Shown here: positions 27,814-43,545 of the stretch, piece by piece
Numbering within the stretch: the stretch's first letter is position 1
How the letters are laid out: each line of letters begins with the position of its first letter
From: Elusimicrobiota bacterium
GTDB lineage: Bacteria; Elusimicrobiota; Elusimicrobia; UBA1565; UBA9628
Length of the DNA stretch: 64,000 nt
Assembly: GCA_003151975.1 (NCBI GenBank)
Contig: PLZD01000067.1
Span: 1,143 to 65,142 of the forward strand
Direction of reading: 5' to 3'
Notes under the pieces: model-generated
Seen by the model: only the letters and a program-made list of their open reading frames with translations
The model's database searches: none
What the model was told of the DNA's origin: nothing
Program-made: the position numbers and the translations under genes

Positions 27814-28852
27814 GCTCGGGGAGTTCGAAAAAGAAGGCTGTTCCTTTTCCCGTCGTAAATCCTATGCGCCCGCCGTGTCGCTCGACGATGGCCTTCGAAA
27901 TCGCCAAGCCCAGGCCGGAGCCGCCCTTCTTGTGGCCTTCGGCCTGCGCGAACCGTCCGAAAATCTTATCGCGAAAGGTCTCCGGTATGCCGGGACCGTC
28001 GTCGCGGATGCTCACGCGAAGTGACGCGGCGTCGCGCTCGATGCTCGCGCGTACCACGCCGCCCTCGGGTGAGAACTTGACGGCATTCGAGAGCAGATTG
28101 GTCAACACCTGGCGCAGGCGGTCGGGGTCGCCCATGACCTTGGCGCCGGGAAGTCCGGCCCTCATTTCGAGGGTGACGCCGGTCTTGGCGCCCAGCCCGC
28201 GCGCCGATTCGAGAATGGACTCCGTCAACGCCGAGAGCTCGAGCGGCTCGAGCTTGAGCGGCGCGGCCCCCGAGGTCAGCTTTTCGATGCTGAGATAATC
28301 GTTTATGAGATCCAGCATGAACTGGCTGTTGCGCATGGCCATGCCCAGCATCTTCTCCGCCGTGTCGGGGTGGCGGCGGGCCAGCTCAAGCGAGCCGATG
28401 ATCGCGGTCAGCGGCGAGCGGAGCTCGTGGGTGGCGAGTGCTATGAGCTCGTCCTTCATGGCCTCGACCTTGCGCCGCTCGGTCACGTCGCGGAAGACCG
28501 CGCGTACGTACTCGGCTTTGCCCGCGTCGTCGAAGCGGTAGTTGATGAAGCCCTCGACCTGGAACTCTGTCCCATTCTTGGAAACGAAGATGCGCTGAAT
28601 CTCGCGCAAGGTCTCTCCCGCGGCCAGCTTCGCCTCGTTTTCCGCGACCAGCACCCGCTGGTCGGGGTGCAGGACGTCGTGGGCGTTCATGCTGTTGATC
28701 TCGTCCTGTGAGTAGCCCAGCTTCTCGCGCCAGGCGCGGTTGACGTAAAGGATGCGGCCCCCGGGCGTGGCGAGGATGACGAGGTCGTCGATGTTCTCGA
28801 GCAAGTCCTCGAGGCGCTGGGTCTCCGCGGCGGGAAGTTGGGCGAGCGTCAT
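27803..28852 (-). CDS. cytoplasmic PAS-domain sensor histidine kinase
   Basis: 349 aa with no TM. It has a PAS region (ILATPGGRILYVNRAWREKLGYSQDEI), an H-box (ATHELRSPLTAIIGSLELA), an N-box (LTNLLSNAVKFSP) and G-boxes (DDGPGIP, GGSGLGLAI). Confidence 0.92.
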   Translation of the reverse strand: MTLAQLPAAETQRLEDLLENIDDLVILATPGGRILYVNRAWREKLGYSQDEINSMNAHDVLHPDQRVLVAENEAKLAAGETLREIQRIFVSKNGTEFQVEGFINYRFDDAGKAEYVRAVFRDVTERRKVEAMKDELIALATHELRSPLTAIIGSLELARRHPDTAEKMLGMAMRNSQFMLDLINDYLSIEKLTSGAAPLKLEPLELSALTESILESARGLGAKTGVTLEMRAGLPGAKVMGDPDRLRQVLTNLLSNAVKFSPEGGVVRASIERDAASLRVSIRDDGPGIPETFRDKIFGRFAQAEGHKKGGSGLGLAISKAIVERHGGRIGFTTGKGTAFFFELPELTS

Positions 28853-29008: not shown

Positions 29009-32000
29009 TTGCAGTGCAATAATGGGTCTATGTTGCGGCGCTTCATTGCTACCGTTGTCTGCGCGGCCCTTATCGTGGCCTGCCCCGGCATCGAGTCATA
29101 CCACGCGATAGCCGGCGAGCTCGGCGAGATCAATGTTGGCGCGCGGCGCGCGCCCGCCCTTCCCGCTCTGCCGACCGCGATCCTGCCCGGCATCGCCAAC
29201 ATCACCCAGCTCTCGCAGACGCCGGGAAATCTAGCCACGGTCACCGAGGTCGCAACAGTTCATTCCGCGATCGCGACGCCTGGCGCGGCCGCTGCAAACA
29301 CTTCTTCGATCTCGAACGCCTCGGCGGTTGCTCAGCCTGAGACGGCGGAGGTTGAAAATGCGGGAAAACTGATCACACCGGAGGTCTTGGCGGGACTCAA
29401 CGCCACGACTAAGGGCGTCTCGGAAGCCGTCGAGGCCCTCGCCAAGCCCGATCTGAGCGCCGAGGGCGCGCACGCCGTCGGCGTCCGCCTCGAAGGCGCG
29501 GTTTCGCCTGCGGTCTCCGCCGAAGAGATTTCTCCCGCGGCCTCGGGCTTCTCAAATTTCTCGGGTAATGTTCATGCCAAGCAGAAGCGCGGCCTCGTCC
29601 AGTCCGTCGGCTTCTTTGCGAAAGCCAAGGGCTTCGTCCGCACAATTTCGGTCGCCGCGGTTCTGACGATCGCAACACTCGGCGGCCCCGTGCTGGCCCA
29701 GACCGTTCCGCAGGGCCCGGCGCCGGCCGGCCAGCAGCAGCAGGTTCCAGCTCCCGCCCAGCCCGGCGCGCCCGTGCTCGGCGCGCCTCAAGACACGGTC
29801 CAGGCCGAGGAGCCCGCGCCCAAGCAAATCGGACCCATCTCGGCGACCATCGCGATCCAAGGCCAGAACATGACGGTCGGCGATCGCTTCCACATCGCGC
29901 TCACGCTGACCAACAGCTCGGATAAGCCGGTCACGATCGCCAATCTGCGGAACTCGCTCAACGACGCCCTGCCCACGGACGTCGAGCTGCAGATGAACTC
30001 AGGGTCGGACGCCGTCACGCTAAAGCCCGGCGAGACGCAGACGGTCGTCTTCGAGACCATCGCGTTTGCCTCGGGCGACATCGCGATGGGCGGCCCGCTG
30101 ATTTTCAACGCGCAGCTCAATGGCCAGGCCGCCGAGATGCAGGCCATACTCGCCGACGGCGCGATCACGGTCAAGTCGGTCCTCACGCCCGATTGGAAGA
30201 AGATCGGCTTCAAGGATATCTACAGCGTCCTGCGCCAGGACGTGCCGCTCTGGGCGTGGCTGGCGGCGATCCCGCTGCTGCTGTCGCTGCTCGTCGCCGG
30301 CGAGCGCGTGCTCGCGGCCCAGCGCCGCGGCGCCAAGGTCCTCTCGGTGGGCCAGCCGCTGCTGGTCTCGACGCGCGCGCGCATGAAAGCGCTCGAAGGC
30401 GCCTTGGAGCAAAACGACGCGGCGTTCTACGCCGAGTACTACTCCATACTCTCGACTTTCCTGATCGACTCGCACGGCTTGTCCGTCAAGGAGCGCGACG
30501 CCAAGACCTTGATCTCGGACCTCAAGAAGGCTAAGAAGCTTTCCTCGGGCCAGCTTAAGGTCGCCTCAGATTTAGCGTTCTCAGCGGAAGCCGCGCGGTT
30601 CGGCGGCCGCGCTACGACGGCCGAGCAGCGCTCCGCCGACCTCGCGGCTCTGTCGTCTCTCGTGGACAACATCGCGGGTGCTTCGAAGACGCAGAAAACC
30701 GAAGGCCTACACAGCCTCGGCGGGCCGATGACGGGCCTGCAGTTCGGCAACCCCTACGCGCTGCTGCTCTTTTTGCCGCTGGCTGGGTATCTGGCTTGGA
30801 AGTTCATAGGCCGCAAGCAGGCCAGCGCCCAAGCCGCTTACCCGCTCTCGACGCTTTCCTCGGTCTCGCCGCGCAAGAGTTTCCGCCAGCGCTTCGGTTG
30901 GCTGACGAAGGGCCTTCGCGCCGCCGCCGTTTCCTTAATTCTGCTCGGCATCGCCGATCCCCAACTCGGCGTGCGCCGCCAGGAGACCATCACGCCGTCG
31001 ACCGACACTGAGCTCATCATCGACGTGTCGGGTTCGATGGACGAAGCCTTCAACGGTTCCGGCAGCCCCAGCAAGCTGGTGGCCGCCGAGGAGGCGATGA
31101 AGGCCTACATCAACGAGCAGCGGCGCGGCACGCAGAACCGCGTGGGCTTGGTCACTTTCTCGGACGAGTCTTACGTCGACATCCACCTCACTCAGGACTA
31201 CGACGCGCTGATCGCGCACTTGAAGGAGCTGCATACGATTTCTTCGACGGCGATCGGCAAGGGCATACTGACCGCGACGGGCCAGTTCCTCGAGGCCAAC
31301 GCCTACGAGCTGACCTCGCAGGACGACCCGCGCATCATCGAGGTTCAGCGCCTCATCCGCACCGAAGGCCTCGGCGCCGCTCTCGAGTATGCCAAGCCCT
31401 ACCCGGACCTCATGGACAAGATCGTCCGGCCCGACCGCAAGAAGGTCATCGTCCTTTTCACGGACGGCGAGTCCAACACTGGCCTTGAGCCCATCCCGGC
31501 CTCCGAGATCGCGGCGAAACTTGGCGTGCGCATCTACACGGTCGGCATCGCTCCCAAGGGCGGCACGGGCGTGGGCTACGATGAGAACACGCTGGTCACG
31601 GTGGCCAAGAACACCGGCGCGCAGTTCTTCCGGGCCGATGACGCCGACCGCATGCGCGAGATCCTGCTCGAAATCAATCGCCTCGAGAAGAGCCCGACCA
31701 AGATCGTGTCGGCCGTATCGGTCCAGAGCTACCAGCAATGGTTCATCATGCTGGCGCTGCTGGCGCTGGGCTTGGAGCTTGGCCTGGCCAACACGAGATT
31801 GCGCGTGCTGTCGGGCTTCTTGATGTTCACTTTGCCGTTCGGCAGCGTCGTCAATTTCAACCCGGCGCAGCAGCCTGCCGCGATCGTGCAGACCGTCGAC
31901 GCCCAGGCCCCGGCCGCGGAATCCGCTTTGCCGACCACCGGCGTGCCCGCCGAGGTCGCCGCGGCCAATCTGCTCTTCAACTCGGGCCGGTATGACGAAG

Positions 32001-35000
32001 CGCTCAAGGCCTACGCCAAGGCGCTCGAGAAGTATCCCGACATGGCCGAGCTCTACTACAACATGGGCAACGCCTACTTGAAGCTGGGCGACGTCGACCG
32101 CGCCAAGATCAGCTACGGCAAGTTTTTGAGCCTCAAACCCGACGCGAAGCTGGCTTCGAAGGCGATCTACAACATGGGCAACGCCGCGCTTTCCGCCAAG
32201 GACGTCGAAGGCGCTGTCGACAATTATAAGGAAGCCCTGCGCCGCGATCCGAACAACGACCGCGCCAAGTGGAACCTTGAGGTCATTAAGGCGCTCCAGA
32301 AAGAGCAGCAGCAGCAGCAATCCCAGCAGCAGCAGAAACAGCAGCAGAAGGAAGGCAAGCAGAAGCAGAACGGCAAGCAAAAGCAGAAAGGCGACCAGAA
32401 GGGCGATCAAAAGGGCGACCAGAAGGGCGATCAGAAAGGCGACCAGAAGGGAGACCAAAAGGGCGATCAGCAGGGCAAGCCCGGCGACCAGAAAGGCGAC
32501 GCCCAAGCCAAGCCCGGCGACAAAGAGAAGAGCGGCGCCGACCAGTTGACCGACAAACTCGGCGACCAGGAAAAGAAGGAAGGCGAGGCCGCGCGCAAGG
32601 CCATCCCGCGTAAGGGCGACAAGGTTTGGGGCCTCCTCGGACTGCCGCTGGCGGCCGGCGGCTCAACCGCCTTGGCTTTCGGCTCAGCCTGGATGCTCTG
32701 GGCGCTGGCTTTCGGCCTGCCCGTCGTCGCCGGCCTCATCGCCTACGGCATCCACAAGAAGATTCAAGCCGCCAAGCAGCTGACTCCGGGCACGGCGCCC
32801 GCGGGTTTTGCTTCCTGGTGGGGACGCAACGCTTTCCTGCGCAAGTCGGCGCTGATGATCACGGCGGCAGCCCTCCTTGGCCTGTCAGCGGCCAACCCGA
32901 AGAGCGGCTACAAGGACGAGCGCCTCAACTTCGGCGGCAAGGACATCGAGGTGGTGCTCGATAACTCGCTCTCCATGCTCTACGCCGAGGACGGCCGCGC
33001 CGACCGCACCCGCAAGGAGCTCACCGATTTCATCACGCACATGCAGGGCACCGACCGCATCGGCCTGGTGGTCTTCGCGGGCTCAGCAAGGACCGCGGCG
33101 CCCATCTCAATGGACTACGGCAATTTCGAGTACAAGCTGCAGAGGTTGGAAGTCGAGTCGCGCGGACTTAAATCCGGCTCGGACCTAGCCGCGGCGGTGC
33201 AGTTTGCCGCCAAGTCCTTCGAGGACGTCAAGCAGCTCGAGGGCCGCCAAAGGATCGTCATCATCATCTCCGACGGCGACATTTTCAACGAGGAACTCGA
33301 GGGCGCCGTAAAATCAGCGCAAGAGCACCACATCACGGTCTACACGATCGGCGTGGGCACGCCGGCCGGCTCCAAGATCAAGGTCCCGACCGAGGACGGC
33401 AAGGGCACCGAGTACGTCATCGACGAGAAGACCGGCCAGCCGGCCGTCACGACACTCGTCGAGGAGCCCCTGCGCCAGATCGCCTCGCGCACCGGCGGCG
33501 CCTACTTCCGCGCAGGCTCAGATTCCTCGATGAACCGCATTCTCGAGCAGATTTCGACGCTGCAGAAAGGCGAGAAGGGCGACACGATCAAGTCCCCGCG
33601 CGGCGTGGCGTCATGGTTCTTGTGGCCGACCATGCTCTTGCTGCTGCTCGAGATGCTGCTGCCGAGCAAGTCGGTGCTCAAGGACGACCGCAAAGAGAAA
33701 GCGCGCGGCGTAGCGGTTCTCGGCTTGGCCTCCTTGCCTTTGTCGGGTTATGCTCTGATGCTGCCTTTCGCCGTGCTCACGACCGTCGCCGTGGGCTTGC
33801 TTGCCGCCGACTATTGGAGCGGCGGAGCGATCCGGCGCAAGATCGCCTGGGAGCTCGAGCGCCGCCGCAAGCTCGTGGAAAACGGCGTCTTGACCGACGC
33901 CGCGGGCTTGTTCGATCTGCGCGAGACCGACGCCCCGAAGCTGTCGGCCTTCCTCAAGTCTTGGAGCGAGGCCGATGAGGCTGGAAAGAAAATCTTGTCC
34001 AACGAGGCGGTCTTAGACGAACAGCTGTGGCGCCAGAAGCTCGCCGCGGCCTTCGTCTACGGCAGCGCGCCGGAGACGCAGGAAGCGCTGCTCACGATGA
34101 TGGCGCGCACCGCGCAGAAGCGCCTCGAGCCGATGGCTCCGGTCGCCGAGCAGTTGCTCGCGCGGCGCGGCCGCCTGCCCTGGCTCGACCATGTCGACGC
34201 GGCGCGGCGCCTCGCGCGCCTCGCGCAGGCCTTCCTCGATAATTCGAAGCCTGAGAATCACGCCGCTTTGGTTTCGCTGCTCTCTCACCCCGACGCCGAG
34301 GTCCAGCAGGCCGCGCGCCAGGCGTTAGGCAGCGAAGTCCCGGCGCCGGCCCTCAAACGCGGGTTTTTCTTCAACTGGCGCAAATGGCTCTCGGTCGCCC
34401 TCTCGACTCTGATGCTCGCGTCCTCCATGACTTGGGCGGGCTTCTCCGGCTACAAGACGACGCAATTCTTCGAGGAGTCGGCCAAGGCGCGGGACTTCTC
34501 GATGCGGACCTTCTACCGCGAGGACATGTTCGTCTTCTCGGACCACTACGCCGACGACCGCATCACGACCGACGTCCTGCCGGCTCTCAAGGCGTGGCAA
34601 GAGAACCCGCAGTCCGCGGGCGCGGGCCTCGAGCGCGCACTGACGGTTCTCTCGCAGTCCCCCGATCCCAAGGCCGACAACGTGCTCGAAGTTATCCTTA
34701 AGCACGGCGACATCCTGCCGCTCACGCCGAAGGCGGAGTATATGCTGCTCCACACCCTCGTCATCCGCGACAACGACGACGTCTGGCGCTTCATGGAGGA
34801 CCACCTCCAGAAGAGCGCGCGCAACCCGCGCGCCGTCATCCTGATGGAGAAGATGATCGCCATAGGTGCTGCCGAGGGCAACGAGAAGGTTTTCCAGAAC
34901 ATCTTCCATTTCCTGAAGAGCCCCAGCGAGCAGATTCAGCAGGTGGCCACGGCCGCGATCGCGGCGTCGCTGTCGGCGCCCGACAAGGTGGCCAAGATCT

Positions 35001-38000
35001 TCGACCGCCTGACCGACGTGCAGTCGCGCTACGCTCAGGACCCCGAAATGAATTTGTGGGTGGAAAACTTCGTGCTCCAGCGTCTGGCGACGGCCGAGGC
35101 CAAGGACATCGACTCGGCCAAGGCGCGGGGCCTCATCGACAAGATTTTGGACGCGGGGTCGCCGTGGGCGGCGATGCGCGCTCAGGCGCTGGCCGCCCAA
35201 GCCGCGCAGCAAGCCCAGCAGCAGCCTCAAGCCGGCGCCGCCCCGGGCGCCGCTCCCCAGGCCCAGCAGCAAGCTCAGATTCCGCCGCCTTTCATCTTGA
35301 TCGTGTTCGGCCAGATGAACGACGCCGAGCAAGCTTTCGTTTCGAACGGCCAGGCCGTCCCCGGGCCGCTGGCCGACATGGTCAAGTACGCGGTCAACCG
35401 CACGATGACGCAGCTCATTAAGGAGGGCGAGGCGAAGTTCGGCGATTTGCACAAGCGTCTCATCGAAGCCGGCGTCGTCCTGCCCGATACTGAGAACTCC
35501 TACGGCGGCGGCTACGACGACGACTACGAGGGGCGCGGTTGGGGCGGCTACCGCGGCGGTCGCGGCGGCAGTTATTCCAGCACGTCGCAGAACTACCGCG
35601 AGCTCTACAAGCTCCAGCACATCCGCGATTTCGCCAAGCAGCTTTCCGAGGCCGCCCAGACGAGCGCCGCGGCCGACAGCGCATCGGTGAAGCCCGAGAC
35701 CCTCGAGTATCTCGACCGCGCCGCCCAGGCTTTGAAAATCATGGAGCCTCTGGGGCAAGCGTCGGGCATGCTCGATGGCGGCAGCGTGGGGGAGAAAGCG
35801 GCCGACGAGGTCAACAAAGTCCTCGACGCCACGGCCTCCAAGCTCACCGGCAGCGGTTTCCTCAACGCCCTGCGCGCCAAAAACGTCGCGCCCAGCAACG
35901 GGGTGGATTCCGGAGCCGCGCGCTTCCTCGAGACCTACACTTTCGAGAACATCGAGGCGATCAAGGCCGTGATCCGGGAGATCGCGGCATCCGGCAAGGG
36001 CTGGGACTACCAGGGCAACCAGCGGACTTTGCTGCTCAGCGAGAAGCAGGCGCTGGCCGCGGCCCTCGACGAGCTCACCGCCGCCGAAGCCAAGGTCTAT
36101 CCGGACAAGGCTAAGCCCGCGGCAGCGAGCGATTTCTGGAAGACGCTGGAGACGCCCGGCGAAGAGAGCCTGGCGTTGGCGCGCTTGAGCGTGGGCGCCG
36201 CCGCGCACGCGGCCGATGCCGAGTTCCAGCTGCGCGCGCTCAACTACCTGACGGCGCACGCCGACAAGAATTCCAATCCCGACGAGCTTTCCGAGATCAT
36301 CGCCCAACTGGCCAAGGCCGTCGAGAAAACCGACAAGGCCCCCGAGGTCCTCTCGATTCTCGCGCGCGTCGTCGACGGCAGGGCAGATAGCGATCCGCTG
36401 ACCGCCGCCATCCGAAAAGAGTATCAGCGCCAGGCGTCCGTCACGATCGCGGACGCGGTCTCAGGCTTCGGAAACCTGAGCCAGAAGCTGATCGATCTCA
36501 AGGTCCGGCCTTCCTCTTATTCCGATAAGCCGTACAAACTGATCGATCTCAAGGTTTTCCTTAAGGCGGTCGAGGACGAGGCGGCCGCCGTGGCCGGGCC
36601 GAATATGAGCGAGGACGCAAAGAAAGCGGCCGCTCGGGCACGGCTGATGGTGCCCAAGATCATCGAGCTGGGGACCAAGGTCGGCATCACGCCGGGAGAC
36701 TCCCCGGCCGATCTCGTCGCCGGTCCGGTCAACGATATCCTGCACCAGGGCTGGCAGCTCTTCGACGGCTCGACCTTCCTCGAGGCCATGCGCCGGCAGG
36801 GACTCGAGCCCGCGGGCAGCTCGACCGACATCTACACGGGCTACTACCAGGCTTACTCCAAGGACAGCCTCGAGAAGATCCTGAAATGGCTCAAGAACGT
36901 GAAGGCTTTGGGCGACGGCTGGAAATCGCAAGACATGTCCACCAAGCCCCTGAGCGACAAGGAGAAGGAATACCTCGACAAGGCCATCAAGGGCATCCAG
37001 GACCAGATCGACAACTATCCGAAAGCCGGGCCCGCCGCGACCGAAAAGAAAGTGTTCCACGGCATGGCGCTCGTCGGCTTGGGAACGCTCGGCACGGCGA
37101 TTTCCTGGATCGGAACCGGCCTGCTGATCGCGGCCGCGGCGGTGGTGATCTACTACGTGGTCCGCGCGGCGCTTAAGAAGACGAAGGCCGCGAGTCTGAC
37201 CCCCGTTTTCAACGCGGCGGCCGAAAGAACCGCGCCGGGACTCGACGGCAGATTTAAGAAAATCGAGATCACGGCCAAGCGCGTGGCCAACTCGGTGGCC
37301 GGCGGCAACTTTCGATCCGTTTTCATCGGCGCGGGCGGCACGGATTTCGCGGAAAGCAAGCCCTACGCCGGCGAGGACCTGCGCGACGTCGACTGGAAGA
37401 CCACCGCGCGCCAGGGCGAGCTCTACGCCAAGAAGTACGAGCTCGAAAAAGACATGCCGCTCATGCTGCTCATCGATCTCTCGCGCTCGGCCCAGTTCGG
37501 CACGCGCGGCGAATCCAAACGTGGCGTTATTGAAGACGCTTCCTCGGTTCTCGCGCTGGCGGCCGCCAACACCAACCTGCGCGTCGGCGCCATCATCTTC
37601 TCCGACAAGGTCGAGGCCTACATCCCGCCGCAATCCGGCGTCAACCACGCCCGCGAGATCGTGCGCCGCGTGCTCGCGTTTGATCCTAAGGGCCAAGCCA
37701 CGGACCTCAAGCCTGCGCTCGGTCTAGCGCTTAAGGAACTGCGTTCCCGGTCCATGATCGCGGTCGTCTCGGATTTCATCGCTCCTGATTTCAAGAATTC
37801 GCTGATGGCGCTCTCAGCGCGCCACGACCTGCGCCTGATCCGCGTCTCCGATCCCGCCGAGACCGCGCCCCTGCCAAAGGTGGGCCTGGTGCTCGTGCGC
37901 GACGCCGAGACCGGCGAGGTGCGCTACGTCGACACTTCCGATACGCGCTTCCGCACCGAGCACGCCGCCTTGCTGGCCAAGCAGGAAGCCGCCCGCCAGG

Positions 38001-38098
38001 CCGCTTTTACCGCCGCGCGCACCGTGCCGCTCACGCTTTCGACGGAAGGGGACCCTCTCGAGGCCCTGGCCGTGTCGCTTAGCCCCAAGAAAAAATGA
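29009..38098 (+). CDS. giant (3,029 aa) multi-pass membrane protein: fused BatD/DUF4381-like + BatA-like vWA + TPR + BatB-like vWA + about 1,100-aa unknown module + DUF58-like domain
   Basis: The frame is uninterrupted for 9,090 nt. An alternative start at 29030 gives MLRRFIATVVCAALIVAC, which is signal/lipobox-like. There are three DxSxS MIDAS-type motifs: DVSGS at 31022-31036, DNSLS at 32960-32974 and DLSRS at 37475-37489. It also has a BatA-type N-terminus (FGNPYALLLFLPLAGYLAW), TPR repeats, and a DUF58 signature (YAGEDLRDVDWKTTAR). The stop overlaps the moxR start. Confidence 0.85.
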   Translation: MQCNNGSMLRRFIATVVCAALIVACPGIESYHAIAGELGEINVGARRAPALPALPTAILPGIANITQLSQTPGNLATVTEVATVHSAIATPGAAAANTSSISNASAVAQPETAEVENAGKLITPEVLAGLNATTKGVSEAVEALAKPDLSAEGAHAVGVRLEGAVSPAVSAEEISPAASGFSNFSGNVHAKQKRGLVQSVGFFAKAKGFVRTISVAAVLTIATLGGPVLAQTVPQGPAPAGQQQQVPAPAQPGAPVLGAPQDTVQAEEPAPKQIGPISATIAIQGQNMTVGDRFHIALTLTNSSDKPVTIANLRNSLNDALPTDVELQMNSGSDAVTLKPGETQTVVFETIAFASGDIAMGGPLIFNAQLNGQAAEMQAILADGAITVKSVLTPDWKKIGFKDIYSVLRQDVPLWAWLAAIPLLLSLLVAGERVLAAQRRGAKVLSVGQPLLVSTRARMKALEGALEQNDAAFYAEYYSILSTFLIDSHGLSVKERDAKTLISDLKKAKKLSSGQLKVASDLAFSAEAARFGGRATTAEQRSADLAALSSLVDNIAGASKTQKTEGLHSLGGPMTGLQFGNPYALLLFLPLAGYLAWKFIGRKQASAQAAYPLSTLSSVSPRKSFRQRFGWLTKGLRAAAVSLILLGIADPQLGVRRQETITPSTDTELIIDVSGSMDEAFNGSGSPSKLVAAEEAMKAYINEQRRGTQNRVGLVTFSDESYVDIHLTQDYDALIAHLKELHTISSTAIGKGILTATGQFLEANAYELTSQDDPRIIEVQRLIRTEGLGAALEYAKPYPDLMDKIVRPDRKKVIVLFTDGESNTGLEPIPASEIAAKLGVRIYTVGIAPKGGTGVGYDENTLVTVAKNTGAQFFRADDADRMREILLEINRLEKSPTKIVSAVSVQSYQQWFIMLALLALGLELGLANTRLRVLSGFLMFTLPFGSVVNFNPAQQPAAIVQTVDAQAPAAESALPTTGVPAEVAAANLLFNSGRYDEALKAYAKALEKYPDMAELYYNMGNAYLKLGDVDRAKISYGKFLSLKPDAKLASKAIYNMGNAALSAKDVEGAVDNYKEALRRDPNNDRAKWNLEVIKALQKEQQQQQSQQQQKQQQKEGKQKQNGKQKQKGDQKGDQKGDQKGDQKGDQKGDQKGDQQGKPGDQKGDAQAKPGDKEKSGADQLTDKLGDQEKKEGEAARKAIPRKGDKVWGLLGLPLAAGGSTALAFGSAWMLWALAFGLPVVAGLIAYGIHKKIQAAKQLTPGTAPAGFASWWGRNAFLRKSALMITAAALLGLSAANPKSGYKDERLNFGGKDIEVVLDNSLSMLYAEDGRADRTRKELTDFITHMQGTDRIGLVVFAGSARTAAPISMDYGNFEYKLQRLEVESRGLKSGSDLAAAVQFAAKSFEDVKQLEGRQRIVIIISDGDIFNEELEGAVKSAQEHHITVYTIGVGTPAGSKIKVPTEDGKGTEYVIDEKTGQPAVTTLVEEPLRQIASRTGGAYFRAGSDSSMNRILEQISTLQKGEKGDTIKSPRGVASWFLWPTMLLLLLEMLLPSKSVLKDDRKEKARGVAVLGLASLPLSGYALMLPFAVLTTVAVGLLAADYWSGGAIRRKIAWELERRRKLVENGVLTDAAGLFDLRETDAPKLSAFLKSWSEADEAGKKILSNEAVLDEQLWRQKLAAAFVYGSAPETQEALLTMMARTAQKRLEPMAPVAEQLLARRGRLPWLDHVDAARRLARLAQAFLDNSKPENHAALVSLLSHPDAEVQQAARQALGSEVPAPALKRGFFFNWRKWLSVALSTLMLASSMTWAGFSGYKTTQFFEESAKARDFSMRTFYREDMFVFSDHYADDRITTDVLPALKAWQENPQSAGAGLERALTVLSQSPDPKADNVLEVILKHGDILPLTPKAEYMLLHTLVIRDNDDVWRFMEDHLQKSARNPRAVILMEKMIAIGAAEGNEKVFQNIFHFLKSPSEQIQQVATAAIAASLSAPDKVAKIFDRLTDVQSRYAQDPEMNLWVENFVLQRLATAEAKDIDSAKARGLIDKILDAGSPWAAMRAQALAAQAAQQAQQQPQAGAAPGAAPQAQQQAQIPPPFILIVFGQMNDAEQAFVSNGQAVPGPLADMVKYAVNRTMTQLIKEGEAKFGDLHKRLIEAGVVLPDTENSYGGGYDDDYEGRGWGGYRGGRGGSYSSTSQNYRELYKLQHIRDFAKQLSEAAQTSAAADSASVKPETLEYLDRAAQALKIMEPLGQASGMLDGGSVGEKAADEVNKVLDATASKLTGSGFLNALRAKNVAPSNGVDSGAARFLETYTFENIEAIKAVIREIAASGKGWDYQGNQRTLLLSEKQALAAALDELTAAEAKVYPDKAKPAAASDFWKTLETPGEESLALARLSVGAAAHAADAEFQLRALNYLTAHADKNSNPDELSEIIAQLAKAVEKTDKAPEVLSILARVVDGRADSDPLTAAIRKEYQRQASVTIADAVSGFGNLSQKLIDLKVRPSSYSDKPYKLIDLKVFLKAVEDEAAAVAGPNMSEDAKKAAARARLMVPKIIELGTKVGITPGDSPADLVAGPVNDILHQGWQLFDGSTFLEAMRRQGLEPAGSSTDIYTGYYQAYSKDSLEKILKWLKNVKALGDGWKSQDMSTKPLSDKEKEYLDKAIKGIQDQIDNYPKAGPAATEKKVFHGMALVGLGTLGTAISWIGTGLLIAAAAVVIYYVVRAALKKTKAASLTPVFNAAAERTAPGLDGRFKKIEITAKRVANSVAGGNFRSVFIGAGGTDFAESKPYAGEDLRDVDWKTTARQGELYAKKYELEKDMPLMLLIDLSRSAQFGTRGESKRGVIEDASSVLALAAANTNLRVGAIIFSDKVEAYIPPQSGVNHAREIVRRVLAFDPKGQATDLKPALGLALKELRSRSMIAVVSDFIAPDFKNSLMALSARHDLRLIRVSDPAETAPLPKVGLVLVRDAETGEVRYVDTSDTRFRTEHAALLAKQEAARQAAFTAARTVPLTLSTEGDPLEALAVSLSPKKK
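29790..30700 (+). other. BatD/DUF4381-like module of the giant ORF
   Basis: A beta-rich segment (ISATIAIQGQNMTVGDRFHIALTLTNSSDKPVTI...) is followed by a TM (VPLWAWLAAIPLLLSLLVAG, 30241-30300). A helical segment with FYAEYYSILSTFLIDSHGLSVKERDAKTL...AARFGG comes after it. The assignment relies on my memory of the family pattern and is not HMM-verified. Confidence 0.5.
30730..31815 (+). other. BatA-like vWA module (TM-TM-vWA-TM)
   Basis: The module has FGNPYALLLFLPLAGYLAWKF, then LRAAAVSLILLGIADPQLG, then the MIDAS motif DVSGSMDE, then VIVLFTDGESN, and ends in the TM QQWFIMLALLALGLELGLA. Confidence 0.8.
31955..32290 (+). other. TPR repeats (BatC-like)
   Basis: Three to four 34-residue repeats are present (AANLLFNSGRYDEALKAYAKALEKYPDMAELYYNMGNAYLKLGDVDRAKISYGKFLSLKPD...AVDNYKEALRRDPNN). 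They are followed by a Q/K-rich tail. Confidence 0.85.
32387..32470 (+). repeat. 12-nt in-frame tandem repeat x7 encoding (KGDQ)7
   Basis: The unit aaaggcgaccag and synonymous variants repeat seven times, then degenerate copies (QGKPGDQKGDAQAKPGDKEK) run to about 32530. The repeat is embedded in a Q/K-rich tract spanning 32290-32600. Confidence 0.9.
32620..33680 (+). other. BatB-like vWA module
   Basis: Two hydrophobic segments lead into ...SAANPKSGYKDERLNFGGKDIEVVLDNSLSMLYAEDGRADRTRKEL, then VIIISDGD, then a terminal TM (WFLWPTMLLLLLEMLL). Confidence 0.8.
35370..36125 (+). repeat. copy 1 of a diverged internal protein-level duplication in the giant ORF
   Basis: This copy aligns by eye with copy 2. 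The matching pairs are FGDLHKRLIEAGV / FGNLSQKLIDLKV, YKLQHIRDFAKQL / YKLIDLKVFLKAV and GSGFLNALRAKNVAPS / GSTFLEAMRRQGLEPA. Two more pairs are GKGWDYQGNQRTLLLSEKQALAAALDEL / GDGWKSQDMSTKPLSDKEKEYLDKAIKGI and YPDKAKPAA / YPKAGPAA. Confidence 0.65.
36395..37040 (+). repeat. copy 2 of the internal duplication
   Basis: See copy 1. This copy also contains a short direct repeat, KLIDLKV, twice (36484-36504 and 36538-36558). Confidence 0.65.
37250..38095 (+). other. DUF58-like (vWA-fold) C-terminal module
   Basis: The module reads FRSVFIGAGGTDFAESKPYAGEDLRDVDWKTTARQGELYAKKYELEKDMPLMLLIDLSRSAQFG...AVVSDF. It is preceded by a TM at 37056-37175. Confidence 0.8.
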
Positions 38099-39615
38099 AC
38101 CGAGGTAACGCCATGAAGACGACGCTCTCGCAAATGATGAAGACTGCGGCCTTGCTGGGCCTGTTCGCCCTGCTCTGTCCCCGCGCGGCGCACGCTGTTG
38201 ATTTCGCCGAGCGCTCCGCGGTGACGCCCGGCGTCCAGCTCAAGCTTGTGACGCTCGACCCGAAGATCGGCGCGCTCGGCAAGCCCGGCGACGGCATCAG
38301 CATCGACCCCCTCGCGGCCCAGCTTCACAATGTCCTGACCGCGGCCGGCCTCTTGACCGAGGCCCCCGGCCAGATCGCGATCCTCACGATCCCTCAGCCC
38401 TTGGCGACGATTTCCAACGGCCCTAAAGCCGCCAACGACGTCGGGACTCCGGCGGAGGCCTCGCAGGCGCGTCTTGCCGAGATCACTAAGACGGTTGTGG
38501 ATATGCCCGACATCTCGAAGGCCGAAGGCACGGATGCCTCCGGCGCTGGACGCACGCTCTCCGACGCCGTCACCGGAGAGAAGACGGTCCACGCCGGCGC
38601 CGTCGAGGCCGAGGCGACGCCGACGGCTCCCGCTAAGCCGCTCAAGCAGCAAATCACCGAGGGCAAAGCCGTCGTCGACGGCATCCGCTCCGAAGTCAGC
38701 AAGGTCATCGTCGGCCAGAATGAAATGATCAACTCGATCATCATGACGATGATCGCGCGCCAGCACGTTCTGCTCGAAGGTCTGCCCGGCGTCGGCAAAA
38801 CCGAAACCGCCAAGGCCTTCGCCGACGCGATCGACGGCTCGTTCCAGCGCGTGCAGGGCACTTCCGACAAGCTGCCCTCCGACATCCTCGGCACCGAGGT
38901 CCTTCAAGAGGACCCGGCCACCGGCAAGAAGTTCTGGGAGCTCTCTAAGGGCCCCATCTTCACGAACATCCTGCTCGCCGACGAAATCAACCGCATGCCG
39001 CCCAAGGCCCAGGCGTCCTTGCTCGAAGCCATGGCCGAAGGCCGCGTGACCATCGGCCGCCAGACGGTCGACCTGCAGCGCTTCACGGTGCTCGCCACGC
39101 AAAACCCCGTCGAGCAGGACGGCACCTACCGCCTGCCCGAGGCGCAGCTCGACCGCTTCATGTTCAAGGTGCTCGTGCCTCAGCCGAGCGCGTCGGATTT
39201 GAAGGTCATCATGGAGCGCAACCGGTCGAAGGAGAACCGCCCGAAAGCGTCCAAGGTCACGAACTTGGCGCAGTTGGACGACATCCGGCGCACCGCCGAG
39301 CAGATCCCGATGGACGCTCAGATCGAGGACTACATCATCAAGATCGTCATGGCCGCCAAGGAGCACGCCGATCTCAAGGATAGTGTGGAATACAGCGTCT
39401 ACACGCGCGCGGCGATCTTCATGGCGCAGGCCGCCCGCATCCACGCCTTGATGGAAGGGCGCGATTGGGTGAGCCCCGCGGATGTGCGCGCGGTAGCACC
39501 CCTCGTCATGCGGCACCGCATCGTGCTCAACTACCAGGCCGCCGGCACGACGTCCGACCAGGTCATCACGAAGATTCTCGACTTGGTCGCTCCGCCGAAG
39601 GTCGCGGCCAAGTAA
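38095..39615 (+). CDS. MoxR-family AAA+ ATPase with about 190-aa N-terminal extension
   Basis: 506 aa. The core starts at about 38668 with Walker A (GLPGVGKT, 38779-38802), Walker B (LLADEINR), [24 protein letters not shown], and a C-terminal lid. The N-terminus has the hydrophobic segment [21 protein letters not shown] followed by an A/P/T/E-rich stretch. It has an ATGA overlap with the giant ORF. Confidence 0.9.
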
Positions 39616-39638: not shown

Positions 39639-39666
39639 GAGGCCCCCGAAAGGGGGCCTTTGTTTT
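39639..39666 (+). terminator. Rho-independent terminator downstream of moxR
   Basis: The stem GGCCCCC (39641-39647) pairs with GGGGGCC (39652-39658) around a GAAA tetraloop, and TTTGTTTT follows. Confidence 0.85.
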
Positions 39667-39722
39667 GCCGGCAGAGTTTTCTCATATACAACAGACCGGC
39701 TTGTTCGTATGATCTGTGCTGC

Positions 39723-41471
39723 ATGCGGGTTCTTTGCTCAGGCCTTCGTTTCCTTTGCGTCGGCGTCGTTCTCGCGTCTGCGTGCGGTTCCGGCGATCAA
39801 CTGCGCGCGGCGTCGCCCGCAGCCTGCGAACAGTCGTTGATCTCGTCGTGGCAGCAGTCTCTCCCCTCGGTGGGATTTGCGAGCGCCGCGTCGGCGGCCG
39901 CGTATGACGCCGAGATCGCGGCCCTTCTTGATCGTCCCTGGATGGGGCATCCGCTGTCCACGTATCCGGGAGGACGCTGGCCCGCCGTCTCGGTGGCGGT
40001 CGTCCAGCAAGGCAGGCTCGTCTTCGCCAAGAGCTATGGCTTTGCGAATATCTCGCAGCCTCAGCTGGCCCACCCCGATGACCTCTTCCGTCTGGCAAGC
40101 GACAGCAAGCAGATCACCGGCGCCGTGATCTTGAAGCTGATCGCCGACGGTCAATCGGTCGACGGCGATCCGGCGCATCGGCTGACTCTGCAGAGCAAGG
40201 TCTTCCAGATCCTGGCCAGTCCGCCCGGTGCCCTCGCGCCGCTCGCGGGGCCCGGGACGCTTCATGCGGACCTCGACGACATCACGGTCGAGGATCTCCT
40301 GCACCACGCAGGCGGATGGAACGGCGGCGTCGGCGATCCGGTAGACTACGCCGGCAAGCCGGGGGCCGTCCTTCCGCCGACCGACAAGGATGTGGTCCGG
40401 TACATGATGAACCAGCCGGTCCAGCACAGGCCGCATGGCAGCACTTACTGCTACTCGAATTTTGGCTACAACGTGCTGGCGACTTTGGTCGAGAAGATAA
40501 CAGGCCGATCCTATGAGAGCGTCGCAAAAGACCTCGTGCTGCGGCCCTTGGGCATCACGCGCATGAAAATCGGTGATTCGCTCAAATCCGGTGCCGGCGA
40601 GGTCACGTACTACGCGGCCGAGGGCGGTGGAAACTTGAGGTCGCTGTTTCCAGAGATGACCGGGCCCACGGTCTCCGGAGAGGACGCGCCCTACGGCAGT
40701 TGGTCTCTCTACGCGGGCCGGGGCGCGGGCGGCTGGATTGGTTCTGCGATGGACATGGTGCGTTTTCAGATCGGCGTGGATGGGACGGGCCCGGTCCAGC
40801 TTTTCTCCTCGCCGCAAGCGATGGTCTCGAGCGCCAATATCTCGCCTAACGCCTGCTACCCAAATTACAATCCGGCGACGCAGTGGTACAACGCCGGCTG
40901 GATCGTCGTCAAAAACGGCGTGTGGGGACATGACGGCGGCGCCACGGGCGCGGGAAGCAACACGACGAAGCTTCCCAACGGCGACGGCTACGCGGCCGTC
41001 ATCAATATGTCCGCAGCGCCCCCGAAGGGAGAAGTCTTCGATTGGGACGGGGCTCTCTCGAGAGCTTACCATCGCACGCTCGCCAACGGCGGCTCGTTTT
41101 TAAAAACCGACCTTTTCGATCAATTTGGAGAGTGGACCGCGTGGCGCGGCAAGGCCGGCATTTCATCGAACGCCGCTCATGATCTTGGCGCCGGCTGCGC
41201 GTACAAGGGGAAAAACTATTCCGCGTGCTATCCTTCGCGAATCGAGGGACGGCAGACCCGGGCGGGGGCAAGCTACCGGGCCGAGTTCGTGCCGCTGCAT
41301 GCCGGAGGCGAGGTTAAATACTCTTTGGGAGCCGCCTGCAATGACTTCGCGGCGATGGATAAGAAATATTTGAGCGGCGGTTATCACCGAGTCAACCTTC
41401 AATGGTTCGAGGACCCGGCGGGGCGCATGCGCTTTCAAAGCGTGTGGGTCAAGGCGGCCGACCGGCGTTGA
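39723..41471 (+). CDS. beta-lactamase-fold serine hydrolase (class C/PBP4*-like) with C-terminal extra domain
   Basis: ATG 39723 gives the signal-like N-terminus MRVLCSGLRFLCVGVVLASAC. The track start at 39660 lies inside the terminator. The SxxK nucleophile motif sits in FRLASDSKQITG, and YSNFGYNVL is present. About 180 extra C-terminal aa end in GGYHRVNLQWFEDPAGRMRFQSVWVKA. Confidence 0.8.
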   Translation: MRVLCSGLRFLCVGVVLASACGSGDQLRAASPAACEQSLISSWQQSLPSVGFASAASAAAYDAEIAALLDRPWMGHPLSTYPGGRWPAVSVAVVQQGRLVFAKSYGFANISQPQLAHPDDLFRLASDSKQITGAVILKLIADGQSVDGDPAHRLTLQSKVFQILASPPGALAPLAGPGTLHADLDDITVEDLLHHAGGWNGGVGDPVDYAGKPGAVLPPTDKDVVRYMMNQPVQHRPHGSTYCYSNFGYNVLATLVEKITGRSYESVAKDLVLRPLGITRMKIGDSLKSGAGEVTYYAAEGGGNLRSLFPEMTGPTVSGEDAPYGSWSLYAGRGAGGWIGSAMDMVRFQIGVDGTGPVQLFSSPQAMVSSANISPNACYPNYNPATQWYNAGWIVVKNGVWGHDGGATGAGSNTTKLPNGDGYAAVINMSAAPPKGEVFDWDGALSRAYHRTLANGGSFLKTDLFDQFGEWTAWRGKAGISSNAAHDLGAGCAYKGKNYSACYPSRIEGRQTRAGASYRAEFVPLHAGGEVKYSLGAACNDFAAMDKKYLSGGYHRVNLQWFEDPAGRMRFQSVWVKAADRR

Positions 41472-43429: not shown

Positions 43430-43545
43430 GCGGGCTCATACTATCAAAAGGAGCGCTTAGGCCAATAGGGCCGATCTTGCCGGGACCAAAGATGAGCCGT
43501 CGTTGGGTCCATTGGCCCAAGCTGGCATGGCGTGAAACCCCTACA

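What the first reader, a model, noticed from the sequence alone, without database searches (positions are those of the whole stretch)
35370..37040. Diverged internal duplication (about 200-250 aa, two copies) inside the unknown module
Seen in the sequence: two collinear segments align by eye over many anchor blocks. The pairs are listed here as copy 1 / copy 2.
- LADMVKYAVNRTMTQLIKEGEAKFGDLHKRLIEAGV / LTAAIRKEYQRQASVTIADAVSGFGNLSQKLIDLKV
- YKLQHIRDFAKQLSEAA / YKLIDLKVFLKAVEDEA
- GSGFLNALRAKNVAPS / GSTFLEAMRRQGLEPA
- FENIEAIKAVIREIAASGKGWDYQGNQRTLLLSEKQALAAALDEL / KDSLEKILKWLKNVKALGDGWKSQDMSTKPLSDKEKEYLDKAIKGI
- YPDKAKPAA / YPKAGPAA
Copy 1 carries the G/Y/R-rich insertion where copy 2 has SSYSDKPY. 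The nucleotide sequences have diverged, so this is an old domain duplication and not an assembly repeat.
Inference: the two copies define a new repeatable domain of about 200 aa.
Basis: seen in the sequence. Interest (0 to 1): 0.55.

Follow-up and report, generated by a model that had tools for sequence, protein, structure and literature searches.

The report
Duplicated new helical domain in giant Bat protein
A 3029-residue membrane protein that fuses a whole MoxR/Bat operon into one chain really does contain two old, diverged copies of a roughly 215-residue helical domain that matches no described family, but what that domain does is still unknown.

Summary
In the 3029-aa ORF 29009-38098 (+), residues 2111-2373 and 2454-2679 are homologous. 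Smith-Waterman scores 148 against 36.8±6.1 for shuffles (z=18). BLASTP gives E=2e-10 and profile-profile comparison gives E=1.5e-22.

There is no DNA-level repeat. Both copies are kept in two Elusimicrobia MAG orthologues and evolve under purifying selection (dN/dS 0.23-0.29).

A profile of the two copies found only 36 real clusters among 1.84 billion representatives. Where complete, these are the same kind of giant protein: BatA-VWA, TPR, BatB-VWA, unknown module, DUF58, with MoxR next door in the window. They carry 2 or 3 copies. Two stand-alone proteins hold the module alone.

N-terminal and C-terminal copies mostly fall on opposite sides of a neighbour-joining tree, so the duplication predates the family's spread.

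Function is inferred only: probably a tandem interaction or scaffold arm of a single-chain Bat/MoxR-VWA machine. Its compartment is unresolved, with periplasm slightly favoured.

The parts
29009..38098 (+). Giant ORF of 3029 aa. The likely true start is the ATG at 29030. It is a single-chain Bat-type protein that contains the duplication.
   Evidence: ORF list, translation, Pfam and NCBIfam domains, full-length orthologues in L001 and L002.
30737..31798 (+). BatA-like segment (aa 577-930): BatA_N membrane helices plus the first VWA domain.
   Evidence: PF07584 is weak (E 0.0064). VWA and VWA_2 are strong. NF047508 BatA matches at 3.5e-52, below its curated cut-off.
31946..32338 (+). BatC-like TPR repeats (aa 980-1110), followed by a Q/K-rich low-complexity stretch.
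   Evidence: TPR_1, TPR_2 and TPR_11 hits, and NF047507 BatC at 1e-18.
32840..33652 (+). BatB-like second VWA domain with flanking membrane helices (aa 1278-1548).
   Evidence: NF047506 BatB at 1.2e-23 and VWA hits. Internal VWA-to-VWA similarity.
33707..33820 (+). Start of the unknown module: a hydrophobic stretch of 38 aa (aa 1567-1604) with K/R-rich flanks on both sides. It is probably a helical hairpin.
   Evidence: Hydropathy and flank charges across 13 family members. This is inference.
34388..34444 (+). Conserved single membrane helix inside the module (aa 1794-1812).
   Evidence: A hydrophobic segment is present at the equivalent place in all 13 family members examined. Its N-flank is more K/R-rich, about 4.0 against 2.3 by hand adjustment of the table.
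34466..35188 (+). ARM/HEAT-like helical region (aa 1820-2060) upstream of the copies.
   Evidence: Weak Arm (9e-5) and HEAT hits. Conserved in orthologues. dN/dS 0.19.
35339..36127 (+). Domain copy 1, N-type (aa 2111-2373).
   Evidence: The AF2 secondary-structure order is the same as in copy 2. dN/dS 0.29.
35486..35602 (+). G/Y/D/R-rich disordered loop inside copy 1 (about aa 2160-2198).
   Evidence: Low AF2 confidence. A loop of 22-53 aa is present in most N-type copies, against mostly 9-15 aa in C- and middle-type copies.
36128..36367 (+). Inter-copy linker (aa 2374-2453), built of five short helices.
   Evidence: AF2 model with pLDDT 86-95 in this stretch. Conserved in orthologues. No family hit.
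36368..37045 (+). Domain copy 2, C-type (aa 2454-2679).
   Evidence: AF2 pLDDT 92.5 and pTM 0.84. dN/dS 0.23.
36485..36555 (+). Two copies of a 20-nt direct repeat (36485-36504 and 36536-36555, 95% identical) that encode KLIDLKV twice inside copy 2.
   Evidence: At the second position L001 keeps a form of the family motif YKLxHLR (YKIMHLR).
37061..37177 (+). Hydrophobic stretch before DUF58 (aa 2685-2723). It has a weakly hydrophobic first half and a strong membrane helix.
   Evidence: Hydropathy. AF2 models only aa 2700-2723 as a helix.
37367..37990 (+). DUF58 domain (aa 2787-2994).
   Evidence: PF01882, E=4.7e-58.
38095..39615 (+). MoxR-type AAA+ ATPase gene whose start overlaps the giant ORF's stop codon. 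It carries a 195-aa N-terminal extension.
   Evidence: AAA_3 at 1.1e-52 and AAA_lid_2. Translation. The extension is conserved in L001 and L002.

Best explanation
What it is (shown). The two segments are paralogous copies of one all-alpha domain of about 215 residues. The domain has a core of long helices, a small beta-hairpin carrying an SGxGW motif, and conserved Gly/Pro-rich loops (AGxxxGxxPxExAAxxxNxxL and FxGxxFLxxLRxAGLAP). The copies arose by an ancient tandem duplication within the gene.

The domain was detected only in a small protein family. The members that sources name are Elusimicrobiota. In the complete fused members examined it always sits in the same place: after a membrane-anchored ARM/HEAT-like region and before the membrane segment that precedes DUF58. 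The host is a giant polypeptide that joins the parts of a Bat/MoxR(MRP)-VWA operon into one chain. Family members have two or three copies. The N-type copy is marked by a long acidic/aromatic/Gly/His-rich disordered loop.

How it most likely works (inferred). The copies act as tandem, rigid helical-bundle interaction modules. Together they form an arm of the membrane complex. Their conserved loop surfaces would bind a partner or client. The N-copy loop may bind cations or an envelope component. The MoxR ATPase, acting through the DUF58/VWA parts, would remodel that partner.

Parity of membrane segments and charge bias place the arm in the periplasm slightly more often than in the cytoplasm, roughly 60:40.

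Likelihoods: real ancient duplication of an undescribed domain, about 0.95. Interaction or scaffold role within the Bat/MoxR machine, about 0.4.
For: Homology of the copies:
- z=18 against shuffles.
- BLASTP E=2e-10.
- hhalign E=1.5e-22.
- The same order of helices and hairpin in both copies in the AF2 model.

Age and selection:
- No DNA repeat.
- Orthologues at 74% and 46% identity keep both copies.
- N and C copies lie mostly on opposite sides of the tree.
- dN/dS is 0.29 and 0.23.

Restriction and repeatability:
- 37 hits among 1.84 billion representatives, 36 of them real.
- 2-3 copies per protein.
- The same Bat architecture in P0004 and P0026.
- Named members are Elusimicrobia.
- Stand-alone module proteins P0019 and P0018.

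Fold: pLDDT 92.5 and pTM 0.84.

No known relatives.

System context: VWA, TPR and DUF58 domains, with the MoxR gene overlapping the stop codon.

Topology hints:
- K/R-rich flanks on both sides of the aa 1567-1604 stretch.
- A more K/R-rich N-flank of the aa 1794-1812 helix.
- A single modelled helix before DUF58.
- A BatA-type VWA domain was shown to face the periplasm in Borrelia BB0173 (PMC5700661).
- A Met/His-rich loop in P0009.
- P0018 lies next to an OmpA-domain protein.
Against: - No functional evidence of any kind exists for this domain. The interaction or scaffold role rests on fold type and position only.
- The topology is not settled. The 36-46-residue hydrophobic stretch before DUF58 could be a hairpin. 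A similar weak-plus-strong stretch before BatA must span the membrane for that junction to be consistent. If so, the copies would lie in the cytoplasm with DUF58.
- The leader-like N-termini of the giant protein, of MoxR and of the stand-alone proteins do not fit either topology cleanly.
- The large-database search used a two-sequence profile, so more distant relatives in other architectures cannot be excluded.
- The AlphaFold database could not be searched.
Confidence: 0.55

Rival explanations
1. The resemblance is compositional. Both segments are Ala/Leu/Glu-rich helical sequence, so this would not be true homology.
For: Both segments are helical and alanine-rich. Identity is only 25%.
Against: - Shuffles that keep composition give 36.8±6.1 against 148 observed.
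- BLASTP with compositional correction gives E=2e-10.
- Profile-profile comparison gives E=1.5e-22.
- The most conserved positions are shared Gly/Pro/Trp loop residues, not helix filler.
- Both copies have the same order of secondary-structure elements.
Confidence: 0.01
2. It is a recent repeat or a mis-assembly of a metagenome contig.
For: The window's relatives are MAGs. Giant repetitive genes are prone to assembly errors.
Against: - No DNA repeat longer than 30 nt links the copies.
- The same two-copy layout is seen in independent assemblies.
- Copies group mostly by position, not by genome.
- Both copies are under purifying selection.
Confidence: 0.01
3. The copies are degenerate members of a known helical repeat class (HEAT/ARM, TPR, Sel1 or spectrin-like), continuing the ARM/HEAT-like region upstream.
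For: - Weak Arm/HEAT hits lie just upstream.
Against: - No Pfam repeat family hits any of 43 domain copies at E<=0.01.
- The unit is about 215 residues with a beta-hairpin and long conserved loops, unlike 30-45-residue repeats.
- Foldseek gives no hit at E<=0.001 and TM-scores of 0.29 or less.
Confidence: 0.07
4. Same domain, different place and role. The copies sit in the cytoplasm next to DUF58 and MoxR, and serve as the adaptor that presents cytoplasmic clients to the ATPase.
For: - The hydrophobic stretch before DUF58 is 36-46 aa long, with Pro/Gly in the middle, and forms two separate segments in P0022 and P0026. This is compatible with a hairpin.
- A similar weak-plus-strong stretch before BatA must span the membrane to keep that junction consistent.
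- If the leader of the stand-alone P0019 is a true signal peptide, its copies end up in the cytoplasm.
Against: - Charge bias around aa 1567-1604 and aa 1794-1812 favours the opposite side.
- AF2 models one helix only before DUF58.
- The gene neighbours of the stand-alone P0018 are envelope proteins.
Confidence: 0.3

Closest known systems
Bacteroides aerotolerance (Bat) / MoxR(MRP)-DUF58-VWA-TPR operons (B. fragilis, Leptospira, Borrelia, Francisella, Riemerella)
   Same: The host protein holds BatA_N plus VWA, BatC-like TPR, a second BatB-like VWA and DUF58, and it is followed by a MoxR AAA_3 gene. Fusions of neighbouring bat genes are known: batB-batC in L. biflexa, and fusions in Borrelia, Spirochaeta thermophila and Francisella (PMC3557215; bb0170 in PMC5700661).
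   Different: Here all the non-ATPase parts are in one chain of about 3000 aa. An extra module of about 1100 aa carries the duplicated domain. I found no counterpart of that module in the curated libraries or in the Bat papers read. MoxR lies at the end of the locus, not the start, and carries a leader-like N-terminal extension.
MoxR-VWA chaperone pairs (RavA-ViaA, NorQ-NorD, CoxD-CoxE); from general knowledge and citations in PMC11834572
   Same: An AAA+ MoxR works with VWA-type partners that bring it to a client. This is the working analogy for what the arm might do.
   Different: Those partners are separate soluble or peripheral proteins. None is reported to contain this domain. No client is known here.
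Tandem helical-bundle rods such as talin rod domains and spectrin/plakin repeats
   Different: The similarity is to the generic bundle only: at most 123 of 226 residues and at most 15% identity. There is no sequence relation. The beta-hairpin and conserved loops are absent from those families. This is an analogy, not membership.
Pfam 'domain of unknown function' entries defined from lineage-restricted repeats
   Same: It is a conserved, independently folding, lineage-restricted domain with no known function.
   Different: It is not yet in Pfam-A (2025 copy) or NCBIfam 20.0.

Membership tests
Bat / MoxR(MRP)-VWA-DUF58 system (host protein and neighbour) | A MoxR-type AAA+ (AAA_3) gene in the same operon | tested here: met
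   Window 38095-39615 matches AAA_3 at 1.1e-52 and AAA_lid_2 at 1.2e-18. Its start overlaps the giant ORF's stop codon.
Bat / MoxR(MRP)-VWA-DUF58 system (host protein and neighbour) | A DUF58 protein or domain | tested here: met
   PF01882 at 4.7e-58, aa 2787-2994.
Bat / MoxR(MRP)-VWA-DUF58 system (host protein and neighbour) | Two membrane-anchored VWA proteins (BatA, BatB) and a TPR protein (BatC) | tested here: met
   VWA and VWA_2 with three stretches. BatA_N is weak here (0.0064) but scores 2.3e-7 in relative P0004. TPR families are well above threshold. NCBIfam BatA, BatB and BatC models match, though below their curated cut-offs.
Bat / MoxR(MRP)-VWA-DUF58 system (host protein and neighbour) | BatD and BatE components | tested here: inconclusive
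   Only a faint Ig-like hit at aa 286-356 (Transglut_C, 0.004), followed by a membrane helix. No BatD, BatE or SH3 family hit.
Bat / MoxR(MRP)-VWA-DUF58 system (host protein and neighbour) | A role in aerotolerance or stress resistance | not testable with these tools
   This needs genetics in an uncultured lineage.
Known helical repeat families (HEAT/ARM, TPR, Sel1, spectrin) for the duplicated domain | A significant match to the family profile | tested here: not met
   Pfam gives 0 families for either copy at E<=10, apart from one chance hit at 0.1. Across 43 copies, three unrelated families each hit one copy at 0.002-0.008.
Any curated protein family (Pfam-A 2025, NCBIfam 20.0, PADLOC 2.0) for the duplicated domain | A profile match above noise | tested here: not met
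Any solved structure family for the duplicated domain | A sequence or fold match covering most of the domain | tested here: not met
   - PDB sequence profile search: best E=0.0088, to a designed protein.
- Foldseek PDB: best E=0.05, TM 0.29 or less.
- BFVD: best E=0.23.
- AFDB was not available.

The most novel reading that the evidence does not exclude
The duplicated domain would be the working arm of a new kind of single-chain, membrane-spanning MoxR-driven machine. In this reading, a rod of ARM/HEAT repeats plus two or three of these bundles reaches into the periplasm. It binds an envelope component or metal through the conserved loops and the acidic/His/Met-rich N-copy loop. The ATPase moves or remodels it. 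The ATPase itself carries a conserved leader-like N-terminus, which hints at unusual membrane tethering or localisation. The stand-alone versions next to TPR and OmpA-domain genes would be the ancestral envelope protein that the Bat system captured.
Probability: 0.12. Interest if true: 0.7.

Novelty: new variant of a known kind. Interest (0 to 1): 0.4.

Why it matters
The function of Bat/MoxR-VWA-DUF58 operons is still unresolved after 25 years (PMC3557215 concludes that 'Bat function remains elusive').

- A lineage in which all the non-ATPase parts are one polypeptide fixes their stoichiometry and order. It also shows which extra part that lineage needs.
- The duplicated domain is that extra part. 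It has a confident predicted fold, so it is a concrete handle for pull-downs, structure work and topology mapping.
- On its own it amounts to a new domain-of-unknown-function entry, restricted to a rare group of uncultured bacteria.

Tried and rejected
- Word-indexed search of 5.8 billion proteins with the module and with a six-copy alignment found nothing. The same search with the whole protein returned only one TPR protein, because low-complexity and TPR words filled the candidate list. That search was wasted.
- Two scans of JGI metagenome contigs found no relative. An alignment of 43 copies was too diverse to derive search patterns.
It was rerun without them.
- AFDB Foldseek was not installed.
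- Whole-protein BLAST against itself hides internal repeats. It was replaced by masked 200-aa chunks.
- I looked for a third copy or a longer repeat unit (linker plus domain). None turned up in the window protein.
- I tested whether the leader-like N-terminal regions of the giant protein and of MoxR are homologous. They are not significantly similar (E=0.33).
- Anti-phage defence was considered. PADLOC gave nothing for the giant protein or the copies, and only generic AAA+ hits for MoxR. A viral origin found no support in BFVD.
- I tried to settle the membrane topology by hydropathy and the positive-inside rule. The result leans periplasmic but is internally inconsistent at the N-terminal leaders, so it is left open.
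Full report
THE OBSERVATION

The finding lies inside one very long ORF, window 29009-38098 on the + strand, 3029 aa.

- A local alignment of the two stretches scores 148 (BLOSUM62, gap costs 11/1). Five hundred shuffles that keep composition give a mean of 36.8, sd 6.1 and maximum 63, so z=18.
- BLASTP with compositional adjustment gives 25% identity over 269 columns and E=2e-10.
- When each stretch is replaced by a profile of three orthologues, hhalign gives probability 99.5% and E=1.5e-22 over 224 columns. It sets the boundaries at aa 2111-2373 and 2454-2679.
- A masked self-comparison of the whole protein shows only one other internal similarity, between the two VWA domains. There is no third copy of this domain.
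- At DNA level the two copies share nothing longer than chance 14-30-mers.

THE HOST PROTEIN

Pfam and NCBIfam place these elements along the chain:
- A BatA-type N-terminal membrane region and a VWA domain (aa 577-930).
- BatC-like TPR repeats (aa 980-1110).
- A second, BatB-like VWA domain (aa 1278-1548).
- A C-terminal DUF58 domain (aa 2787-2994, E=4.7e-58).

The next gene, 38095-39615, overlaps the stop codon and encodes a MoxR-type AAA+ ATPase (AAA_3, 1.1e-52). The protein is therefore a single-chain version of the Bat/MoxR(MRP)-DUF58-VWA-TPR operon.

Smaller fusions of bat genes are already known in spirochaetes and Francisella (PMC3557215; PMC5700661).

Between BatB and DUF58 lies about 1100 aa with no strong family match. 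In order, it contains:
- A hydrophobic stretch (aa 1567-1604).
- About 190 helical residues.
- A conserved membrane helix (aa 1794-1812).
- An ARM/HEAT-like region (weak Arm hit).
- A Q/A/P-rich spacer.
- Copy 1, an 80-residue linker, and copy 2.
- A hydrophobic stretch, and then DUF58.

RELATIVES

A scan of one genome per species found two loci, both in Elusimicrobia MAGs. Each holds a full-length orthologue, of 3016 aa and 2928 aa, followed by MoxR. The first aligns at 74% identity over aa 1165-3029. The second aligns at 46% over the full length.

Identity in the two copies is 76% and 70% for the closer orthologue, and 48% and 32% for the farther one. Nei-Gojobori dN/dS between the window and L001 is 0.29 for copy 1 and 0.23 for copy 2, against 0.15 for the VWA and DUF58 parts. 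Both copies are therefore maintained by selection, somewhat less tightly than the catalytic-type domains.

A profile built from the two window copies alone was run with HMMER against 1.84 billion cluster representatives. It returned 37 proteins at E<=0.001, of which 33 were at E<=1e-10. One, P0037, is a low-complexity artefact that a cleaner profile does not hit. The other 36 are long proteins of 2690-3461 aa or contig-truncated pieces of such proteins.

- The two long members tested, P0004 and P0026, have the same VWA-TPR-VWA-module-DUF58 order.
- The three clusters that carry a source name are annotated only as 'VWA domain-containing protein' or 'TPR repeat protein'. The two with NCBI accessions are from Elusimicrobiota.
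- The domain is thus real, recurrent and very rare: 36 clusters at 50% identity in 1.84 billion.

COPY NUMBER AND HISTORY

An HMM iterated on these sequences finds two copies in the window protein, in both orthologues and in eight further proteins. It finds three copies in P0003, P0004, P0009, P0019, P0022 and P0031. A group of four proteins has one complete copy followed by partial, rearranged ones.

On a neighbour-joining tree of 54 complete copies, most copies nearest the ARM/HEAT region lie on one side and those nearest DUF58 lie on the other. Mean identity is 31.5% between N-type copies of different proteins, against 25.9% between the N and C copies of one protein. The first duplication therefore predates the spread of the family. 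Third copies arose later. In P0004 the third copy derives from the C-type copy.

The copies are not interchangeable. Most N-type copies carry a loop of 22-53 residues rich in G, Y, D, E and H. In P0009 this loop reads HGHGHGMMGMMGHMGMFGGYMGGYG. C-type and middle copies mostly have 9-15 residues at that point.

Two complete stand-alone genes encode only leader, membrane stretch, ARM/HEAT-like region and copies, with no VWA, DUF58 or MoxR nearby:
- P0019 has three copies.
- P0018 has two copies and is followed by a 1063-aa TPR protein and a 1022-aa Big/OmpA-domain protein.
Neither has any Pfam hit. The module is therefore an evolutionary unit of its own that the Bat fusion captured, or released.

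STRUCTURE

AlphaFold2 on copy 2, with a 43-row alignment of copies, gives mean pLDDT 92.5 and pTM 0.84. The model has seven helices, a two-stranded hairpin at model residues 183-194, and a final long helix.

A second model of aa 2100-3029 (20 rows, pLDDT 81.6, pTM 0.58) shows the following:
- The same order of elements in copy 1 and copy 2.
- A disordered G/Y-rich loop.
- A five-helix linker at pLDDT 86-95.
- One membrane helix (aa 2700-2723).
- An alpha/beta DUF58 part.

The most conserved positions across 54 copies are not helix cores but loops. G2559 and G2563 are conserved in 94-96% of copies, within AGxxxGxxPxExAAxxxNxxL. The others are FxGxxFLxxLRxAGLAP, a Tyr before the sixth long helix, and SGxGW in the hairpin. 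Such a pattern is what one expects of a conserved binding surface or a tight structural turn. This is an inference.

COMPARISON WITH WHAT IS KNOWN

- Neither copy, nor any of 43 copies, matches a Pfam family convincingly.
- NCBIfam and PADLOC give nothing.
- A 43-copy profile against all PDB sequences gives nothing better than E=0.009, to a designed helical protein.
- Foldseek against the PDB gives no hit at E<=0.001 and TM-scores of 0.29 or less.
- The viral structure set also gives nothing.
- The AlphaFold database could not be searched.

The domain is thus an up-and-down helical bundle with additions, and it has no identifiable named relative.

HOW IT PROBABLY WORKS

Shown:
- The domain is always tethered to the membrane through the same ARM/HEAT-like region.
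- It is repeated two or three times.
- The copies have diverged in a consistent way.
- In most family members it is covalently joined to the VWA/TPR/DUF58 set. In the window and both orthologues that set is paired with a MoxR ATPase.

Inferred: the copies form a rigid, rod-like arm whose conserved loops bind a partner. MoxR, acting through its VWA-type partners as in other MoxR systems, remodels that partner or its complex. I put this at about 0.4.

On which side of the membrane the arm lies matters, and it is not settled. Taking BatA/BatB VWA domains as periplasmic (experimental for Borrelia BB0173, PMC5700661; also the positive-inside rule here), the evidence divides as follows.

For a periplasmic arm, with a single membrane pass back to a cytoplasmic DUF58:
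- The stretch aa 1567-1604 has K/R-rich flanks on both sides. The downstream flank averages 4.2 K/R across 13 proteins.
- The helix aa 1794-1812 has a more positive N-flank, about 4.0 against 2.3 after hand adjustment.
- AF2 models one helix before DUF58.
- The Met/His-rich loop of P0009 and the OmpA neighbour of P0018 point the same way.

Against it:
- The stretch before DUF58 is 36-46 residues long, with a Pro/Gly-rich middle, and forms two separate segments in P0022 and P0026.
- A similar weak-plus-strong stretch before BatA has to cross the membrane twice for that junction to be consistent.
- The leader-like N-termini of the stand-alone proteins would place their copies in the cytoplasm if they are true signal peptides.

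I estimate periplasm 60%, cytoplasm 40%.

VERDICT

This is an ancient internal duplication of an undescribed domain of about 215 residues. The domain is repeatable, with 2-3 copies, and separable. It is confined, as far as a two-sequence profile can see, to a rare family of giant Bat-type proteins whose named members are Elusimicrobiota.

It is a new module in a known kind of system, not a new kind of system. A new lineage-restricted domain of unknown function is not in itself surprising. The interest comes from its host, a complete Bat/MoxR partner set in one chain, whose function has been an open question since the operon was described.

Noticed in passing
window 38095-39615 (+); also L001 12806-14326 and L002 12414-14075: The MoxR AAA+ ATPase has a roughly 195-aa N-terminal extension. 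It starts with a signal-peptide-like segment ([36 protein letters not shown]), followed by an Ala/Pro-rich linker. The hydrophobic start (AAALLGL) is conserved in both orthologous loci. An exported or N-terminally anchored MoxR would be unusual.
   Followed up: partly
window 29030-29650 (+), aa 8-210 of the giant ORF: The giant protein also begins with a leader-like hydrophobic segment. In many relatives this is followed by a conserved (S/A)PG-x3-Y(Q/H/E)A motif and about 180 aa of Ala/Pro/Ser-rich sequence, before a second signal-like segment (aa 206-234) and an Ig-like region. The two stand-alone module proteins have a leader and an Ala/Pro-rich region too. The similarity to the MoxR extension is not significant (E=0.33).
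   Followed up: partly
window 36485-36504 and 36536-36555: A 20-nt direct repeat (AAGCTGATCGATCTCAAGGT, 95% identical) lies 51 nt apart inside copy 2 and encodes KLIDLKV twice. The closest orthologue has KLVDLKV and then KIMHLRT. In the window the second occurrence therefore seems to have overwritten the family motif YKLxHLR, which looks like a small templated change.
   Followed up: partly
window 29009-38098 as a whole: The order of modules is BatD-like Ig plus membrane helix, a helical segment, BatA, TPR (BatC-like), BatB, the unknown module and DUF58, and then MoxR as a separate gene. From memory, this is a circular permutation of the usual operon order, which begins with moxR and DUF58. 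At three junctions a weakly hydrophobic Gly/Ala/Leu/Pro-rich stretch of 12-16 residues precedes the strong membrane helix, as if extra passes were added to keep the topology after fusion.
   Followed up: partly
window 32340-32640 (about aa 1110-1210): A long Gln/Lys-rich low-complexity run with GDQK repeats (KGDQKGDQKGDQ...) follows the TPR repeats. Relatives have Gln/Gly/Pro/Lys-rich runs at the same place.
   Followed up: no
window 27803-28852 (-): A PAS-HisKA-HATPase_c histidine kinase is transcribed divergently from the giant gene. It could be its regulator.
   Followed up: no
window 39660-41471 (+) and 43477-46527 (+): Downstream genes encode a 603-aa beta-lactamase-family (PBP-like) protein and a 1016-aa Rce1-like CAAX protease fused to a trypsin-like/PDZ (HtrA-type) protease. 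Both are envelope-related, which fits an envelope role for the locus.
   Followed up: no
L005 1183-11326 (stand-alone relative P0018): The stand-alone two-copy module gene is followed on the same strand by a 1063-aa TPR protein and a 1022-aa protein with Big and OmpA domains. This could be a non-Bat context for the domain.
   Followed up: partly
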